Under the pieces are notes generated by a model. It was not told the DNA's origin and did not search any database. It saw nothing but the letters and a program-made list of their open reading frames with translations. DNA of 11,850 nucleotides. Source: a virus (lineage: Duplodnaviria; Heunggongvirae; Uroviricota; Caudoviricetes). The stretch is taken from IMG/VR virus record IMGVR_UViG_2623620491_000015, positions 1-11,850 of that record, one strand, 5' to 3'. Below, in pieces: positions 334 to 8,687 of this stretch. A program made the translations under genes and the position numbers. Positions within the stretch are counted from its first letter, which is position 1. Every line of letters begins with the position of its first letter.

Positions 334-826
334 TTTAATACCTCGCAAATTCGCCGAAACATTCATCCGCTTTATTTGCATATACTTTATGAGCTTCCTT
401 TGGGTCATCGTAAAACCCAAGATTAACTTTCCTCTTGTTGATTACGATTTGCGCCCTCCATTTTCTTGATTTCTTATCCCATGAAACGCCTTTATATCCT
501 GATTTGTTATTTGCCTTTTTGTTTACGTTTTGGATGTTTTGAGATCGAGTTGCCAATCTAAGATTTGCTATACGATTGTCATCCCTAACGAGATTTATGT
601 GGTCGATATCACTTTTTGGTAGACTGCCATTCATATAGAGCCACGCCAGCCTGTGTGCCTTATAAAGTTTTCCATCGACTTTTATTACCCAGTAGCCTTC
701 GCTACTCTTATGCCCTGCGATATCCCCAGCATTCATTCTCTGGCATTTCTTTACTTTCCATGTGAATTTCCCTGTTAACTCATCGTAGAGAAGGACTTCT
801 TTTAGTCTCTGCTGAGTTATTTGATT
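232..826 (-). mobile_element. Homing-endonuclease cassette inserted in the 5' part of ninB (HNH-AP2 coding segment plus a replacement ninB 5' end)
   Basis: NinB-like sequence sits on both sides: residues 1-32 at 922..827 and from residue ~35 at 231 downward. The intervening segment is visibly AT-rich compared with flanking DNA and encodes the endonuclease domains plus a new ninB start with its own SD. Boundaries are approximate. Confidence 0.5.
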
Positions 827-922
827 GATTGGTTTGGTTGGGTCTGGAAGGATTTGCTGTACTGCGTGAATAGCGTTCTGCTGATGTGCTGGAGATCGAA
901 TTTCAAAGGTTAGTTTTTTCAT
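335..922 (-). CDS. HNH (HNH_3) + AP2-domain homing endonuclease, fused in frame to the first 32 residues of lambda-type NinB
   Basis: Track ORF 335..940 starts at TTG; the ATG at 922 (MKKLTFEI...) has a purine-rich SD (GGGAGAGGGAAG) just upstream. Motif DIDHINLVRDDNRIANLRLATRSQN is HNH_3-like; SGYKGVSWDKKSRKWRAQIVINKRKVNLGFYDDPKEAHKVYANKA is AP2-like. The first 32 aa read like the NinB N-terminus. Confidence 0.8.
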   Translation of the reverse strand: MKKLTFEIRSPAHQQNAIHAVQQILPDPTKPINQITQQRLKEVLLYDELTGKFTWKVKKCQRMNAGDIAGHKSSEGYWVIKVDGKLYKAHRLAWLYMNGSLPKSDIDHINLVRDDNRIANLRLATRSQNIQNVNKKANNKSGYKGVSWDKKSRKWRAQIVINKRKVNLGFYDDPKEAHKVYANKADECFGEFARY

Positions 923-936
923 GACTTCCCTCTCCC

Positions 937-970
937 CCAAATAAAAAGGCCTGCGATTACCAGCAGGCCT
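937..970 (-). terminator. tR2-like intrinsic terminator between helicase and ninB region
   Basis: Perfect 8-bp inverted repeat aggcctgc / gcaggcct (947-954, 963-970) with an 8-nt loop. On the minus strand it is followed by TTTTATTTGG. Confidence 0.6.
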
Positions 971-995: not shown

Positions 996-2372
996 TCATA
1001 CGTCAGCCCCTTGTGCATATCGTCTGCCACGCGCAGCAGGTGCATTTGATGCTGTGCAAATCTGTCTGGCTTCATCCTGGTCACATGCAACAAAGTGTCC
1101 GTTACAGAACCGCTGGTAAACCGTACCAAGCGAGCCAAAACGGTTTTTCGTCACGATGATTTCAGCAAATGGCGCGGCGCTACTGTTCTCGTCATATACC
1201 GCTTCCCGATAGAGCATGATGATTGAGTCTGCGTCCTGTTCAATGCTTCCTGAATCACGCAAATCTGCGTTTGTCGGGCGTTTGTTTGGTCGCTTCTCAA
1301 CATCGCGCGAAAGCTGACTTAGGGAGATAACAGGCGTTTTCAGGTCTTTCGCCATCGCCTTCAGGCTTCCGGAGATGTGAGCAATTGCTAGGTCGTTGCG
1401 GTCTGCTTTCGGCTTCTCAATCAGGCCAAGATAATCCGCCATGATTAGAGACAGGTTTGGATTTTCCTGTTTATGCCGTTCTGCGATTGAGCGTATTTCT
1501 TCGACCGATAACCGCGAGGCATCGACTACCCATACATCCAAATCTGCAAGCTGACTCATGCCGTTAGCAACACGCGCCCAGCCTTCGTCATCCATCGATG
1601 CAGGATTTCGCAGTACGCTAACCGACATCCTCCCGGCGTTGGCAATGCTTCGCTCTGCAATCTGCAATGCGCTCATTTCCATTGAGAAAATCAATACCCC
1701 GCGCCGGACGTCAGAACCAGGAATAACGCGGCTTGCAACGCCTTCGGCAATCTTCAGCGCCAGTTCGGTTTTCCCCATACCAGGACGAGCAGCGATTATC
1801 ACCAGGTCTTCTGCGTTCATCCCTCCGGTGATGGCATCAAGTTCTTCGATTCCGGTCTTCAGGGTATCGGACTCTTCTCCGTTCCTCAGACGCCTGTCAA
1901 GCGTGTCAGTGTAGTCAGTGATGATTTCCCCTAACCGTACAGGTTTAACCTCGTCACGGGGCTTTCTGATAGCTGAGAGACGTTTTACAAGTTCATCCAT
2001 CGCCTGACTCGATGCGTCGATGGTTCCGCTCTGAATTGGTTCACGCATTTCATCCATGATTTCCAGCACCAGACGGCGGTGATAGTTATCCGCGACCATT
2101 CCGGCATATCCCTTCAGGTTTGCGGCACTCGGGCAGTTTTTGCTGGTCATCAGGATTGACGTGAAATGCTCCTCTCCGCATTCCTCAGCAACCATCAGCG
2201 CGTCGATTAGGTTTCTGTTTCGCGCCTGCTTGCGGATAACCTCGAAGGCTTTCCGGTAGAGCGGAATTGAAAACGCTTCCGGCTCCAGCGTTGCCAGAAC
2301 GTCACTGGCGGTTGGAGTTAATCCACCAATCAGCAAGCCACCGATAACGCTCGCTTCGATATCCTGTCTCAT
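996..2372 (-). CDS. Replicative DNA helicase, DnaB family (P22 gp12-like)
   Basis: 458-aa ORF with Walker A ([15 protein letters not shown]) and DnaB-type RecA-fold motifs ([29 protein letters not shown]). ATG at 2372 overlaps the upstream gene's stop (ATGA). Confidence 0.9.
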
Positions 2373-3316
2373 GCAATCCCCCTGTCTGCAAACTTCCCTT
2401 CCCGTACTCCCGTTAACGAATCTTCCCTCAGCAGGTAATCAAAATCTGCCGTCCAGCCCGTGTCGTTGTCTCCGAAGTAAAACGGCTTGGCCTGATGCAC
2501 AAACGCCCTGACATACGCTCTGAAACCGTCCACGTTTGGCGTTTTCAGTTGCGGAATGATTTTCTTCAGGCGACGTTTGCGTTTCTCGTTGACCGCAACA
2601 GCGTGTGGCAGTCTGTCACCGACTTCGGTGTTGTAGGCATTCAGGAAGGATTCATAGTCGATTCGTTCTGCCTTGCGACGTTCAGGTTTAACCTGCCCAT
2701 CGCCTCCCCCATTGGGGGGTAGGGGGGTATTATTTATATTCTTGTTAATACCTTCTTGTTCATGATGTGCGGTTGTTTGTGCGGCTTCATGTGCGCTTTC
2801 ATGTGCGGCATGTACGCTGAAAGCCGCGCCATTACTGGCTTCGTCATGTGCGGCGTCATGTGCGGTTGTTTGTGCGGCTTCATGTGCGGGTGAATTGTCC
2901 ATTTTTTGAGCATATTCATGGTAATTTGTGATGGTGATCACACGACCTTTTTGCTTCTCTCCATCAATGGTGATCATCCCCTCTTTCACAAAAACCTGAA
3001 GCATCCGCTCAACCTGATCACGGCTTGCCGGCTTGCCATGCCTGTCGCATAACTGAAGACCTAAATCAGCTGCTGTCACAACCAGTTGACCGGGTTGCAG
3101 ATGCCATTCATGACCTTTGAAATTCGCTTTGTATGGCTTTCTGGCGGCATTCAGGAGAAGGTTTTCCCACAGGGTGCGAAGATAAACATCTTTCGCCCAT
3201 GACTGTTTCAGAATGCTCCGGTACAACGGAATGTAACCAGTTTTCTGGTTCTCCATCCTGTTGCTCCTGCGCTCGTGTGCGGCGCTGAAATCGTAGATTT
3301 TTGCTGTGTTGCTCAT
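2369..3316 (-). CDS. Replication initiator protein (lambda O / P22 gp18-like) with a repetitive Ala/His-rich linker
   Basis: 315-aa ORF. The N-terminus [10 protein letters not shown] resembles lambda O (MTNTAKILNF). It sits immediately upstream of, and translationally coupled to, the helicase gene. The internal repeat region coincides with the iteron-like DNA repeats. Confidence 0.8.
2766..2894. repeat. Eight copies of a 12-bp direct repeat TGTGCGGnnnnn in two clusters of four; candidate ori iterons
   Basis: Units at 2766, 2778, 2790, 2802 and 2847, 2859, 2871, 2883 (tgtgcggttgtt, tgtgcggcttca, tgtgcgctttca, ...). A G-rich then AT-rich stretch follows at 2710-2760 (ggggggtaggggggtattatttatattcttgttaata). 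This is the same arrangement as ori-lambda inside O. Confidence 0.55.
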
Positions 3317-3318
3317 AA

Positions 3319-3591
3319 CTACCTGCCTTGACGAAAGACCTTAAGAACATCGTTAAACTGACTTACGGATATGTCTTCTTTGAGCAGCTTTTCCAGAAAT
3401 GCGTTTGGAATGAACGTATATCCATCCTCTTTTGGTAGAGACGGGAGCAACGCCCTCGCCTCAGCCTTCAGAAGCTCAGTTCTGGCAACTTTCACAAAAG
3501 AGATTTGAGTTCTTTCATCAATGGAACGAAGGAAGCGCAAACGCTTAGCTTCTTTGTGTGTATCAGGTGGATTAAAGCCTTTGTTTCGCAT
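3319..3591 (-). CDS. Hypothetical protein (90 aa) between cII and the O-like gene
   Basis: Internal ATG of track ORF 3319..3756 at 3591 with GAGG SD. The upstream part of the track ORF overlaps cII in another frame and is discarded. The stop abuts the O-like start. Confidence 0.55.
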   Translation of the reverse strand: MRNKGFNPPDTHKEAKRLRFLRSIDERTQISFVKVARTELLKAEARALLPSLPKEDGYTFIPNAFLEKLLKEDISVSQFNDVLKVFRQGR

Positions 3592-3602
3592 ATAATTACC
3601 TC

Positions 3603-3669
3603 GTTGGATGTTGTTAAAATTCCATTTGTATTTGATCAGAACGCTCGGTTGCCGCCGGGCGTTTTTTAT
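3603..3669 (+). ncRNA. oop: oop-like antisense RNA overlapping the 3' end of cII
   Basis: Plus-strand TATAAT at 3591-3596. The 3' end CAGAACGCTCGGTTGCCGCCGGGCGTTTTTTATT matches the lambda oop terminator as I recall it. It is antisense to the last ~55 nt of cII. The 5' end is an estimate. Confidence 0.6.
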
Positions 3670-3910
3670 TGGTGAGTCCATCAAGCGCATACTTAAAAGC
3701 CCTGCTAATCGGACTGATATCTGATGCCATTCCGAAAGCACACAAGACCGAGGCAATAAATCTCCAGTCCGTTCTGCTTATCTTCGATTCATGACAGCCA
3801 ATCATCTTTGCCAGACCGCGCTGGGTAAGTGTTGACAGGTTGATGAGTAAATCGGTTTCTGCGCGATCAACATCGCGCTGTGATAGTTTGCTGTAACTTG
3901 TTTGTTCCAT
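3614..3910 (-). CDS. cII: Transcriptional activator CII
   Basis: 98 aa. The C-terminus LTNKKRPAATERSDQIQMEF and the central ...ESKISR... match lambda CII. Position between cro and the replication genes fits. Confidence 0.9.
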   Translation of the reverse strand: MEQTSYSKLSQRDVDRAETDLLINLSTLTQRGLAKMIGCHESKISRTDWRFIASVLCAFGMASDISPISRAFKYALDGLTNKKRPAATERSDQIQMEF

Positions 3911-4019: not shown

Positions 4020-4235
4020 TTAAGCGGCTTTGTGTTCCGGCGGGAACACGTCATCAAGACTGACTTTTGCGCCTAACTTGTTTAGGCACGCAACAAGAGC
4101 ACGGCATGTTTTAAGGTCTGGGAAGCGACGACCAGATTCCCAATGTCCGATAGCTCCCTGTGTGCATCCAACCGCCTTAGCAAGTGTTGTTTGAGAGATA
4201 TTCAGTGACTCTCGATATTTTCGTAGGTTGCTCAT
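4020..4235 (-). CDS. cro: Cro-like HTH repressor (71 aa)
   Basis: Internal ATG at 4235 with GGAGGG SD directly upstream. HTH region SQTTLAKAVGCTQGAIGHWESGRR. Divergent from cI across the operator region. The 5' extension of the track ORF is discarded. Confidence 0.8.
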   Translation of the reverse strand: MSNLRKYRESLNISQTTLAKAVGCTQGAIGHWESGRRFPDLKTCRALVACLNKLGAKVSLDDVFPPEHKAA

Positions 4236-4346
4236 ATGCCCTCCATAGTAACCATGAAACAATAATACGATATGTACTTTTGGAATGCAAACAAAAAATA
4301 CATCTTGTGCATGGATGGTTTTAGTACATAGCGTAATAATAAGGAT
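4236..4346. promoter_or_regulatory. OR region: divergent PR/PRM with repeated ~17-bp operator motif
   Basis: Operator-like sites at 4262-4280 and 4321-4339 are inverted copies (AGTACATAnCGTAnTA) and are partly palindromic. PR candidate on the minus strand: -35 TTGCAT (complement of 4285-4290), 17 bp, -10 TATTAT (complement of 4262-4267). cI may be nearly leaderless. Confidence 0.6.
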
Positions 4347-5006
4347 ATGAAAATGAAATGGTATGAACTGGCTAGATCCAGAATGAAAGAGCTCGGCATA
4401 ACTCAAGAGAAGTTAGCTGAAGAGCTTGGTATGACGCAGGGTGGAATTGGTCACTGGTTGCGCGGATCTCGTCATCCATCTCTTGACGAGATTGGTGTGG
4501 TGTTTAAATACCTTGGTATTGATAACGTCTCATTCAACCACGACGGTACATTTTCACCTGCTGGCGAATACTCATCTGCCCCCGTTAAAAAACAATATGA
4601 GTACCCTGTTTTTTCTCATGTTCAGGCCGGGATGTTCTCGCCTGAGCTTAGAACCTTTACCAAAGGTGATGCGGAGAGATGGGTCAGCACAACCAAAAAA
4701 GCCAGTGATTGTGCGTTTTGGCTTGAAGTTGAAGGTAATTCCATGACCGCACCAACAGGATCCAAGCCAAGCTTTCCTGACGGAATGTTAATTCTCGTTG
4801 ACCCTGAGCAGGCTGTTGAGCCAGGAGATTTCTGCATAGCCAGACTTGGCGGTGACGAGTTTACCTTCAAGAAACTGATCAGGGATAGCGGTCAGGTGTT
4901 CCTACAACCACTAAACCCGCAATATCCAATGATCCCATGCAATGATAGCTGTTCCGTAGTAGGGAAAGTTATCGCCAGCCAGTGGCCTGAAGAGACATTT
5001 AGTTAA
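4347..5006 (+). CDS. cI: CI repressor (LexA-like S24 autocleavage domain); lambda-type C-terminal domain with a non-lambda N-terminal HTH domain
   Basis: The C-terminal ~125 aa ([22 protein letters not shown]...[11 protein letters not shown]) are near-identical to lambda CI as I recall it. N-terminal HTH is [25 protein letters not shown]. Alternative start ATG at 4353 with AAGGA SD. Confidence 0.9.
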
Positions 5007-6559: not shown

Positions 6560-6871
6560 ATGAAATTACGTGTCTGGCATATCCCGCAAGTACCTATGAA
6601 GCCGTTCATTGTAGAAGTGGCAAGTGTTGAAGAGGGTGTTCGCCTGATGGACGCACTGGCTGATTATGACGCCTTTCAGTATGACAACAACATCAAGCCT
6701 GATTACTGCAATGCTAACGGCCTTGAGATGTGGGATGAGAGCCTTACCGATGAAGATTTATCAGAGATGGGGCTTACTGATCGCTGGGTGGATTGGTACA
6801 GCGAATGCCAATGTTACGACGACCCACGTAAATATCTCGAAAGCCTGAAAGAAGAAACATCAGCCGCCTAA
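6560..6871 (+). CDS. Hypothetical acidic 103-aa protein
   Basis: ATG with GGAGG SD. Strongly acidic composition (many D/E, Trp-rich). Sits in the ea10/ral-equivalent position. Confidence 0.65.
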   Translation: MKLRVWHIPQVPMKPFIVEVASVEEGVRLMDALADYDAFQYDNNIKPDYCNANGLEMWDESLTDEDLSEMGLTDRWVDWYSECQCYDDPRKYLESLKEETSAA

Positions 6872-7472: not shown

Positions 7473-8180
7473 ATGGATTTGAATAAATTCGATGAGCCAT
7501 TCAGCCCTGAAGATATCGAATGGCGAATACAGCAAAGCGGTAAAACACGCGATGGCAAAGTGTGGGCTATGGTGCTGGCTTATGTAACGAACCGGGCAAT
7601 CATGAAACGCCTGGACGATGTTTGCGGCAAAGCAGGATGGCGCAATGAATACCGCGATATTCCCAACAACGGCGGCGTTGAATGCGGCATATCAATAAAG
7701 ATTGATTCCGAATGGGTAACCAAATGGGATGCTGCTGAAAACACGCAGGTAGAAGCCGTCAAAGGTGGTCGTTCCGGTGCAATGAAGCGCGCTGCCGTTC
7801 AGTGGGGAATCGGTCGGTATCTGTATAACCTTGAGGAAGGTTTCGCACAAACATCTCTCGATAAAAAGCAGGGATGGCACAGGGCAAAACTCAAGGATGG
7901 AACAGGATTTTACTGGCTCCCTCCATCGCTGCCGGGATGGGCAATACCAGCATCAGATAACAAACCATCACCAGAAAATACCAACCAGAAATCTCCATCG
8001 GTTGACTGCGAACAAATCCTGAAAGACTTCAGCGATTATGCGTCAACAGAAACTGACAAGAAAAAACTCATCGAGCGTTATCAGCGTGACTGGCAATTAA
8101 TGGCTGGCAATGAGGAGGCGCAGGCTAAATGCGTTCAGGTAATGAACATCAGAGTTAACGAACTAAAACAGGCGGCATAA
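7473..8180 (+). CDS. Single-strand annealing protein, Rad52/Sak family
   Basis: 235 aa with Rad52-like motifs (RLDDVCGKAGW ... GAMKRAAVQWGIGRYLY). Directly precedes ssb. Confidence 0.7.
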   Translation: MDLNKFDEPFSPEDIEWRIQQSGKTRDGKVWAMVLAYVTNRAIMKRLDDVCGKAGWRNEYRDIPNNGGVECGISIKIDSEWVTKWDAAENTQVEAVKGGRSGAMKRAAVQWGIGRYLYNLEEGFAQTSLDKKQGWHRAKLKDGTGFYWLPPSLPGWAIPASDNKPSPENTNQKSPSVDCEQILKDFSDYASTETDKKKLIERYQRDWQLMAGNEEAQAKCVQVMNIRVNELKQAA

Positions 8181-8687
8181 ATGGCAAGCAGAGGCGTAAA
8201 TAAGGTGATTATCCTTGGTCGGGTAGGACAAGACCCGGAAGTTCGATACTCACCATCAGGTACAGCGTTCGCTAACCTGACAATAGCCACGTCAGAACAA
8301 TGGCGAGATAAAAATACTGGCGAGCAAAAGGAATTGACTGAATGGCATCGTGTTGCTGTATCCGGGAAACTGGCTGAGGTCGTGGGGCAGTATGTGAAAA
8401 AAGGTGATCAGATTTATTTCGAGGGAATGCTGAGAACCAGAAAGTGGAAAGACCAGTCAGGGCAAGACCGTTACACAACCGAGGTTCATGTCGGAATTAA
8501 TGGCGTGATGCAAATGCTTGGCGGCATTGGCGACAGCAAACAACAAGCAGCCAGCAGGCAATCACAGAAGCCACAGCAGCAATCATCACCAGCACAACAC
8601 AACGAACCTCCGATGGATTTTGACGACGATATACCCTTTGCACCAGTAACTCTCCCCTTCCCTCGTCACGCTATTCACGCAATTTAA
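8181..8687 (+). CDS. ssb: Single-stranded DNA-binding protein with a 15-aa extension after the DDDIPF motif
   Basis: OB-fold N-terminus ([23 protein letters not shown]...), Q/S-rich linker, then MDFDDDIPF followed by [15 protein letters not shown] before the stop. Confidence 0.85.

What the first reader, a model, noticed from the sequence alone, without database searches (positions are those of the whole stretch)
3319..3591. Extra 90-aa gene between cII/oop and the replication initiator
In lambda, O starts a few dozen bp after cII. Here a 90-aa ORF with its own SD fills the gap, and its start region overlaps the oop-like promoter TATAAT. I recognise no family. It is a possible moron or a regulator of the lysis-lysogeny decision.
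Basis: seen in the sequence. Interest (0 to 1): 0.45.

Follow-up and report, generated by a model that had tools for sequence, protein, structure and literature searches.

The report
Small conserved gene preceding phage initiator
The 90-codon reading frame is a real, conserved phage gene of unknown function that always sits directly in front of the replication-initiator gene; it appears to be built partly from a copy of that initiator's own beginning, so it belongs with DNA replication and is not an imported cargo gene.

Summary
Window 3319-3591 (minus strand) is a 90-aa ORF with a GAGG Shine-Dalgarno. Its ATG abuts the -10 (TATAAT) of an oop-type antisense promoter. Its stop lies 2 nt before the ATG of the O-like initiator.

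It is a genuine gene. It is the only open frame in all homologues, dN/dS is 0.05-0.23, and it matches PHROG 2519 (function unknown) over its full length. It is identical in phage Kapi1 and 99% identical in Stx2a phages. It occurs in 279 of 5426 complete E. coli genomes, always annotated 'hypothetical protein'.

In about 100 loci from Escherichia to Proteus it always directly precedes, or overlaps, a Phage_rep_O gene. This holds whatever cII, cro or helicase surrounds it.

The family core aligns from Met1 with the first ~56 residues of lambda/P22-type O proteins (hhalign P=2.4e-5). The N-terminal third weakly resembles P22 orf48, a small gene already described in the same slot. No known fold matches.

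The best reading is an initiator-derived accessory protein of the replication module, translationally coupled to O. The mechanism is unproven. The moron and lysis-lysogeny readings are not supported. It is a new member of a known, uncharacterised kind, of modest interest.

The parts
3319..3591 (-). ORF90 coding sequence (90 codons + TAG), member of PHROG 2519
   Evidence: Only frame open in all homologues; dN/dS 0.05-0.23. 100% identical to Kapi1_024.
3493..3591 (-). Basic N-terminal third of ORF90 (aa 1-33), weakly similar to P22 orf48 (PHROG 1913)
   Evidence: hhalign P=0.002 and P=2.7e-4. Reciprocal HMM searches rank each family near the top of the other's non-family hits, but E is 0.1-1. 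Lead only.
3322..3492 (-). Conserved core of ORF90 (aa 34-90). It corresponds to the stand-alone 59-62-aa short forms and is collinear with the first ~56 residues of lambda/P22/HK97-type O. The Pfam Phage_rep_O hit covers aa 55-88 (nt 3328-3429).
   Evidence: 17 of 20 members hit PF04492 below threshold, best 5e-5; P=9e-4; mEp213 O E=4.6e-5; P=2.4e-5, 53 columns from Met1.
3599..3602 (-). Shine-Dalgarno GAGG of ORF90, 7 nt before the ATG
   Evidence: GAGG is present in 6 of the 8 loci; L004 has TAGG and L009 GGGG.
3591..3596 (+). -10 hexamer TATAAT of the oop-type promoter pO, touching the ORF90 start codon
   Evidence: Same layout as lambda, where CATAAT covers the O ATG. The conserved pO box is described in PMC3349717.
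3603..3669 (+). oop-like antisense RNA (predicted, ~67 nt). It begins GTTGGATG, overlaps the last ~55 nt of cII, and ends at an intrinsic terminator (3638-3665 plus T-run).
   Evidence: Alignment to the lambda cII 3' end and oop region; terminator scan. No Rfam family matched.
3614..3910 (-). cII-like activator gene, upstream neighbour
   Evidence: Pfam Phage_CII E=2.4e-34.
3322..3329 (-). Ribosome-binding site of O (AAGGCAGG), inside the last codons of ORF90 (QGR). It is followed by TAG, 2 nt, then the ATG of O.
   Evidence: The junction has the same layout in 8 diverged loci. The gap is identical in 79 of 80 IMG/VR loci. Distant homologues overlap O by 4 or 8 nt instead.
2369..3316 (-). O-like replication initiator (315 aa), downstream neighbour and constant partner
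   Evidence: Pfam Phage_rep_O E=3.6e-15; PHROG 345.
2759..2889 (.). Iteron-like array (12-bp period, TCATGTGCGG) inside the O gene; presumed origin
   Evidence: Its position is analogous to the lambda iterons annotated inside O.
996..2372 (-). DnaB-like replicative helicase, third gene of the module
   Evidence: Pfam DnaB_C E=9e-78, DnaB E=2e-13.

Best explanation
ORF90 is a genuine early gene and the first cistron of the phage replication module (oop promoter - ORF90 - O - helicase).

Shown: it is transcribed in the rightward early direction with cII and O. It has its own SD. Its stop codon lies on top of O's ribosome-binding site, 2 nt before O's ATG, so ribosomes finishing ORF90 are delivered to O (translational coupling).

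Shown at modest statistical strength: the conserved core (aa ~34-90) is a stand-alone, diverged copy of the first ~56 residues of a lambda/P22-type O protein. That stretch covers the N-terminal leader, the first strand and the first two helices of the O winged helix. The copy ends before the recognition helix and wing.

Lead only: the basic N-terminal third resembles P22 orf48, another small gene in the same slot. This suggests ORF90 arose by fusion of two small genes that are still separate in a Proteus prophage.

Inferred: the protein is an accessory modulator of replication initiation, not a sequence-specific DNA binder. Its core is 44-60% identical between prophages whose O domains and helicases are unrelated or at most ~30% identical. 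Its partner is therefore most likely something common to all these systems, either a host replication or proteostasis factor or a generic feature of O-origin complexes, and not a co-adapted surface of its own O. It is dispensable for O-type replication in general, since lambda lacks it.
For: Coding and selection.

Family: PHROG 2519 full-length E=3e-57. About 75 proteins in 5.8 billion, all Enterobacterales, 59-93 aa.

Synteny: the gene lies immediately upstream of a Phage_rep_O gene in Kapi1, TL-2011a and a Salmonella phage; in Scandinavium, metagenomic and Salmonella loci; in Serratia, Klebsiella, Providencia and Proteus; in 6 of 6 GTDB species loci; and in 80 of 80 IMG/VR loci with this O allele.

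Linkage to O and not cII: the mosaic joint lies at the oop terminator; no cII gene called in that locus. In the phage collection, 57 records hold the ORF and 57 hold the full-length O allele.

Homology to the O N-terminus.

Core more conserved than O or the helicase.

Structure: a confident helical model, pLDDT 84.6, with a long helix, a short strand pair and two helices, and no recognition helix or wing.

Context: pO is itself part of lambda replication control (PMC3985674).
Against: The homology to O rests on P-values of 1e-3 to 2e-5 over 35-55 residues. All Pfam hits are below the gathering score. The similarity to orf48 is not significant by HMM E-value (0.1-1).

The same O N-domain type works with other occupants of the slot: a ParB-HTH protein in a Klebsiella phage, gp53 in HK97/mEp213, and nothing in lambda. 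A replication role is therefore not obligatory.

Constant adjacency to O could be historical only, if the gene was born there.
Confidence: 0.5

Rival explanations
1. Lysis-lysogeny regulator. The protein acts on cII, its stability or the oop/pO circuit, and so biases the decision.
For: It lies next to cII. Its start sits in pO and its RBS abuts the 5' end of oop. In E. coli prophages the oop-pO segment is co-inherited with ORF90.
Against: ORF90 stays at least 95% identical while cII is swapped for a 42-44% identical allele. A Providencia homologue lies between a cro-like gene and O with no cII gene called. The one invariant neighbour across genera is O. The core is homologous to O, not to any regulator family.
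Confidence: 0.12
2. Translational-coupling leader or evolutionary relic. The frame matters only because its translation delivers ribosomes to O, or because it is a leftover 5' piece of a replaced O gene. The peptide itself has no function.
For: Stop and start are 2 nt apart or overlap in every locus. The core does look like the 5' end of an O gene. Truncated or chimeric copies are common in databases.
Against: Purifying selection on the amino-acid sequence is strong (dN/dS 0.05-0.23) across lineages with saturated synonymous change. Length and motifs (G57, I61-P62-N63, L83, F86) are conserved from Escherichia to Proteus. The core is better conserved than O itself. A mere leader would not keep 55-90 specific residues.
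Confidence: 0.12
3. Moron or accessory cargo: a lysogenic-conversion, defence or anti-defence gene dropped into a permissive slot and unrelated to replication.
For: The slot between pO and O holds different genes in different phages: orf48, gp53, a ParB-HTH protein, or nothing (PMC3349717). The family is narrow and patchy: 5% of E. coli genomes and 6 GTDB species.
Against: No promoter-like site or terminator flanks it. Composition is like its neighbours. No meaningful PADLOC hit (best E=0.02) and no NCBIfam hit. It is never found away from an O-type gene. It is derived from O itself.
Confidence: 0.08
4. Initiator-fragment inhibitor. As a truncated copy of the O N-terminus without the DNA-reading part, it forms mixed, inactive complexes with O-type initiators. 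It either throttles its own replication or interferes with superinfecting lambdoid phages.
For: Collinear homology to O residues 1-56 and absence of the recognition helix and wing. Co-expression with O in a fixed ratio through coupling.
Against: The resident O in this window has a diverged N-domain (GYIPLYRS...) that ORF90 matches only weakly (hhalign P=9e-4). The ORF90 core is conserved across loci with at least three different O N-domain types. This argues against a specific O-O' interface with its own initiator. Nothing tests interference with other phages.
Confidence: 0.15

Closest known systems
P22 orf48 / HK620 hkaW (PHROG 1913) and HK97 gp53 (PHROG 1331): the 'orf' between oop and the O-like gene of lambdoid phages (Hayes et al. 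2012, PMC3349717)
   Same: Same slot. Each is the first gene after the conserved pO/oop box, with its ATG at the end of that box. Each is small and basic, lies immediately upstream of and overlapping or abutting the initiator gene, and has unknown function. The ORF90 N-terminal third shows weak collinear similarity to orf48. A Proteus prophage carries an orf48-like gene and a short PHROG 2519 gene side by side.
   Different: ORF90 is about twice as long and falls in a different PHROG. Most of it (aa 34-90) has no counterpart in orf48 or gp53 and instead resembles the start of O. The window ORF90 does not reach any threshold against PHROG 1913.
N-terminal winged-helix domain of lambda O-type initiators (Pfam PF04492 Phage_rep_O)
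   Same: The family core aligns from Met1 through the first strand and two helices of lambda/P22/HK97-type O: MSN..., (E/D)DG(Y/F), x-x-x-N, then L(S/T)xxQF...L.I.
   Different: Only about the first 40 of 95 profile positions are present. The recognition helix, wing and everything after them (iteron linker, C-terminal helicase-recruiting domain) are missing. Scores are below Pfam's gathering cut-off (16.8 vs 28.7 bits). It is a separate gene next to a complete O.
Small proteins encoded just upstream of plasmid initiator genes alongside an antisense RNA (IncFII/R1 copB - copA - tap - repA). This comparison comes from general knowledge and was not tested here.
   Same: The layout is analogous: a small ORF or ORFs precede an initiator, an antisense RNA promoter lies in the leader, and translation is coupled into the initiator gene.
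   Different: No sequence or fold relation was detected. CopB is a transcriptional repressor and tap is a leader peptide. Neither role is shown here. oop targets cII, not the initiator.

Membership tests
PHROG 2519 (phage protein family, function unknown) | Full-length match to the family profile | tested here: met
   E=3.4e-57, residues 1-90 on profile 1-90 of 90. The short forms match profile positions 34-88 at E~1e-16. Kapi1_024 carries the same PHROG note in GenBank.
Pfam PF04492 Phage_rep_O (initiator winged-helix domain) | Score at or above the gathering threshold (28.7 bits) over the domain | tested here: not met
   16.8 bits, E=0.01, only profile positions 6-39 of 95. 17 of 20 family members hit, all below threshold, best E=5e-5. 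This is partial homology, not domain membership.
Pfam PF04492 Phage_rep_O (initiator winged-helix domain) | Presence of the recognition helix and wing that read the iterons | tested here: not met
   The protein ends at the position equivalent to the end of helix 2. The AF2 model has only H63-71 and H76-86 after the strand pair.
[quoted passage not shown] | First ORF after the conserved pO/oop 5' box, with its ATG at the end of the box, immediately upstream of the O-like gene | tested here: met
   The window sequence ...ATCCAACGAGGTAATTATATG compares with the published box ...ATCcACAGGAGTaATTATG. O starts 2 nt after the stop.
P22 orf48 family (PHROG 1913) | Significant match to the family profile | tested here: inconclusive
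   No hit at E<=0.01 for the window protein; P0039 scores E=0.21. hhalign gives P=0.002 (19 columns) and P=2.7e-4 (33 columns). Reciprocal HMM hits rank high but at E=0.1-1 in a database of 5605 ORFs.
Moron (independently expressed cargo gene) | Own promoter and terminator, and composition different from its neighbours | tested here: not met
   No promoter-like site was found between cII and the ORF, and there is no terminator before O. GC is 44%, against 45.5% for cII and 46.5% for the window. The gene is translationally coupled to O.
Known anti-phage defence proteins (PADLOC) | Match to a defence-system profile | tested here: not met
   The only hit is E=0.02 to JetB for the window protein. 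Two other family members give nothing.
Replication accessory protein acting with O | Physical or genetic interaction with O, the helicase or the origin; a replication phenotype | not testable with these tools
   Only synteny and descent support it.

The most novel reading that the evidence does not exclude
ORF90 is a domesticated fragment of the replication initiator: a free-standing copy of the O N-terminus, fused to an orf48-like basic arm. It works in trans as a regulator of initiation. It might do so by occupying a host factor that normally engages that part of O, by tuning assembly of the O-origin complex, or by poisoning the initiators of competing lambdoid phages. If so, the small 'orf' genes long seen between oop and O (orf48, gp53, ORF90) would together be an unrecognised layer of lambdoid replication control.
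Probability: 0.2. Interest if true: 0.55.

Novelty: new member of a known kind. Interest (0 to 1): 0.3.

Why it matters
Lambdoid replication control is a textbook system, but the small genes between the oop promoter and the initiator gene (P22 orf48, HK97 gp53, and this 90-aa family) have never been given a function. This one is carried by about 5% of complete E. coli genomes, including UTI89, and by a large group of Stx2a-converting phages, where phage replication drives toxin output.

Three results make a specific hypothesis cheap to test in Kapi1 or in a mini-replicon: the gene belongs to the replication module, it is coupled to O, and it is partly a copy of O's own N-terminus. If it has no phenotype, it is still a clean example of a new gene born from the 5' end of an essential neighbour. 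Either way the finding is incremental.

Tried and rejected
- Sequence search against PDB chains: nothing at E<=10.
- NCBIfam: nothing. PADLOC: nothing meaningful. Rfam at gathering scores found no family in the window, oop included.
- An exhaustive profile search of 1.84 billion representatives found only 15 hits and no full-length initiator bearing this N-terminus. The family is therefore not simply a mis-called 5' end of a longer gene.
- A recent pseudogene or relic was rejected on dN/dS and on conserved length.
- A longer 145-aa version starting at the upstream TTG was rejected. It would overlap cII, the ATG and its ribosome-binding site are conserved, and L004 has an in-frame stop 12 nt upstream.
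- A programmed -1 frameshift fusing ORF90 to O was considered. O's frame is open for only 8 codons before its ATG and I saw no slippery heptamer by eye, so I did not pursue it.
- Plasmid hits looked like possible lambda-dv-type mini-replicons. They turned out to be 5.5-5.9 kb Salmonella records with cI-cro-cII-ORF90 and only ~590-620 bp left where O should be, and no annotated O or helicase. They are probably assembly artefacts.
- Literature searches for PHROG 2519 and for a gene 'between cII and O' found nothing. The Kapi1 transcriptome paper does not discuss the gene; it is simply not among the genes listed as undetected.

Full report
**What is there.**
The window is the early region of a P22-like/lambdoid prophage. 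Reading the minus strand, the order is:
- cro-like HTH gene (4020-4238);
- cII (3614-3910);
- the 90-codon ORF (3319-3591);
- an O-type initiator (2369-3316);
- a DnaB-type helicase (996-2372).

The cI repressor (4347-5006) is on the plus strand.

The ORF reads MRNKGF...FRQGR*. A GAGG lies 7 nt before its ATG. On the other strand TATAAT (3591-3596) touches the start codon. It is followed by a sequence that aligns with the lambda oop region and by the lambda-type oop terminator (3638-3665 plus T-run).

In lambda the equivalent -10 (CATAAT) covers the ATG of O itself, and cII and O are 32 bp apart. So the ORF occupies exactly the place where O begins in lambda.

**It is a real gene.**
Seven diverged copies were compared, with 67-74% nucleotide identity between the diverged groups. 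Only this frame is open in all of them. Variable alignment columns fall 37/27/77 on codon positions 1/2/3. Pairwise dN/dS is 0.05-0.23 with synonymous sites near saturation.

The ATG and a purine-rich Shine-Dalgarno are present in all eight loci compared (GAGG in six of them). In one locus an in-frame TAG 12 nt upstream excludes a longer protein.

The protein matches PHROG 2519 (no known function) end to end, E=3e-57. It is 100% identical to Kapi1_024 ('hypothetical protein') and 99% identical in TL-2011a, in 48 Stx2a-converting phages and in several other E. coli phages; the CUS-3 and Gally matches cover the C-terminal 42 residues. It is present in 279 of 5426 complete E. coli genomes and is labelled 'hypothetical protein' in every listed row with an annotated feature.

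The family is small. It has about 75 clusters among 5.8 billion proteins and 15 representatives at 50% identity. Members named by a source organism are all Enterobacterales, and lengths are 59-93 aa. It occurs in only 6 loci among 185,579 GTDB species representatives.

**It belongs to the replication module.**
The stop codon is followed by 2 nt and then the ATG of O. O's ribosome-binding site (AAGGCAGG) is formed by the last ORF90 codons. This junction has the same layout in all eight diverged loci.

More distant homologues overlap the O start by 4 or 8 nt instead. These come from Serratia, Klebsiella, Providencia, Proteus and Xenorhabdus.

In every locus examined the next gene is a Phage_rep_O-type initiator. 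That covers about 100 loci:
- 80 IMG/VR contigs;
- annotated phages;
- metagenomic contigs;
- 6 GTDB genomes.

What lies around the pair varies:
- cII alleles that are only 42-44% identical to the window's (58 of the 80 IMG/VR loci, where ORF90 stays at least 95% identical);
- no cII gene called at all (Providencia, where a cro-like gene abuts the small gene);
- helicases of DnaB type, DnaB with an intein, or Toprim-AAA type.

In E. coli prophages with different cII alleles the mosaic joint lies at the oop terminator inside the cII 3' end. So oop, pO, ORF90 and O are inherited together.

In the phage collection the number of records with the ORF (57) equals the number with the full-length O allele (57). 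Many more phages share only O's C-terminal domain and lack the ORF.

No promoter-like site precedes the ORF and no terminator follows it. Its GC content matches its neighbours. This is not what a moron looks like, and nothing ties the gene to cII.

**What the protein is made of.**
AlphaFold gives a confident model (pLDDT 84.6 with 48 sequences). It has helices at 13-23 and 26-51, a short strand pair around 53-58, and helices at 63-71 and 76-86. No solved or viral predicted structure resembles it, and no PDB sequence matches it.

Several independent comparisons relate the C-terminal part to the very beginning of O-type initiators:
- Pfam Phage_rep_O, profile positions 6-39, below threshold, hit by 17 of 20 members with a best E of 5e-5.
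- PHROG 678 'replication initiation O-like'.
- hhalign against O N-termini, P=9e-4.
- A local HMM search of 5605 ORFs, in which most of the next-best hits after the family itself are O N-termini (mEp213 O at E=4.6e-5).

The clearest result uses the 59-62-aa short forms from Providencia, Proteus and Xenorhabdus. These begin MSNV..., like P22 gp18 (MSNL...) and this window's O (MSNT...). They align from Met1 over 53 columns with the first 56 residues of lambda/P22/HK97-type O proteins (P=2.4e-5, probability 76%).

The core of the family is therefore a free-standing copy of the 5' end of an initiator gene. It keeps the leader, the first strand and two helices of the winged helix, and it stops before the recognition helix and wing.

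The long forms, including this one, carry a basic N-terminal extension with weak, collinear, reciprocal similarity to P22 orf48. The hhalign values are P=0.002 and 2.7e-4; the HMM E-values of 0.1-1 are not significant.

A Proteus prophage has an orf48-like gene (PHROG 1913, E=9e-8) and a short PHROG 2519 gene as two overlapping genes in front of O. A fusion origin for the 90-aa form is plausible but unproven.

**How it most likely works.**
The gene's position, the coupling and its descent are shown. The function is inferred.

The core is 44-60% identical between prophages whose O N-domains, O C-domains and helicases are unalignable or at most ~30% identical. It accompanies at least three different O DNA-binding domain types.

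That pattern argues against a co-adapted contact with its own O. It favours a partner common to all these systems, either a host factor or a generic property of O-origin complexes.

The same O N-domain type also functions with other slot occupants: a ParB-HTH protein in a Klebsiella phage, gp53 in HK97/mEp213, or nothing in lambda. The protein is therefore an accessory, not a core initiation factor.

I commit to 'initiator-derived accessory modulator of replication initiation, made in fixed proportion to O by translational coupling'. Confidence is about 0.5 for the whole statement: high for gene, module and origin, and roughly 0.3 for the mechanism.

The rivals are a lysis-lysogeny regulator, a coupling leader or relic, a cargo gene, and an initiator-fragment inhibitor. 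Each is listed in the report with its refuting experiment.

**Relation to what is known.**
Hayes et al. [quoted passage not shown] The window has a variant of that box.

An extra small gene here is therefore a known arrangement. This family is a further, larger occupant, and none of the occupants has a known function.

Olszewski et al. (PMC3985674) showed that pO is part of lambda replication control. They also showed that insertions of 6-500 bp between pO and ori cripple lambda plasmids. Here the natural pO-to-iteron distance is about 700 bp, against about 350 bp in lambda. These modules must therefore be organised differently in that respect.

**Verdict.**
The moron and lysis-lysogeny readings are not supported. 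This is a catalogued but uncharacterised small gene of the replication module, and its partial derivation from the initiator's own N-terminus is the one new point. It is a new member of a known kind, with interest of about 0.3.

Noticed in passing
window 2759-2889: About eight copies of a 12-bp-period repeat (TCATGTGCGG) lie inside the O gene. They encode a His/Ala-rich linker ([16 protein letters not shown]...). This is presumably the iteron array of the origin, as in lambda, but about 700 bp from pO instead of about 350 bp.
   Followed up: partly
window 335-940 (-): A 201-aa HNH endonuclease with an AP2 DNA-binding domain (HNH_3 E=1e-16, AP2 E=1e-6) sits just downstream of the helicase gene. 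It looks like a free-standing homing endonuclease in the nin region.
   Followed up: partly
L002 5220-7613 (phage TL-2011a; same in the Stx2a phages): The helicase that follows the same ORF90-O pair is 797 aa. It is a DnaB-type helicase interrupted by an intein with a LAGLIDADG homing endonuclease.
   Followed up: partly
PHROG 1913 (P22 orf48; L100 1612-1758): PHROG 1913 is labelled 'tail protein', but its member P22 orf48 lies between c1 and gene 18 in the early-right operon. The label looks like an annotation error.
   Followed up: no
L099 3832-4180 (Proteus prophage): Two overlapping small genes precede O: an orf48-like gene (58 aa, PHROG 1913) and a short PHROG 2519 gene (59 aa). This may be the unfused state of the two halves of ORF90.
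   Followed up: partly
L187, L188 (NZ_CP148796.1, NZ_CP148879.1 and about 20 similar Salmonella records): Circular 'plasmids' of 5.5-5.9 kb consist of a prophage immunity region (cI, cro, cII, an ORF90 homologue) plus unrelated genes. Only ~590-620 bp remain where O should be, with no O or helicase annotated. They are probably assembly artefacts, not lambda-dv-like replicons.
   Followed up: partly
OR850084.1 (hits H69, H83): A 2.7-kb record named 'Staphylococcus phage SA 1298 Kay' carries an enterobacterial-type O gene and an ORF90 homologue with the same identity (74.1% over aa 10-90) as a Salmonella phage from the same submission series. It is likely a mislabelled or contaminated record.
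   Followed up: no
L093 2204-3001 (Klebsiella phage 2 LV-2017): Here the slot between cII and an O gene with a closely related N-terminal domain (79% identical over aa 3-143) holds a 265-aa ParB-HTH protein whose stop overlaps the O start (ATGA). The pO-O junction accepts very different genes.
   Followed up: partly
window 6560-6871 (+): A homologue of P22 superinfection-exclusion gene 17 (Pfam GP17, E=7e-56) lies in the early-left operon. Further along the plus strand are a Rad52/22-type recombinase (7473-8180) and an SSB (8181-8687).
   Followed up: no
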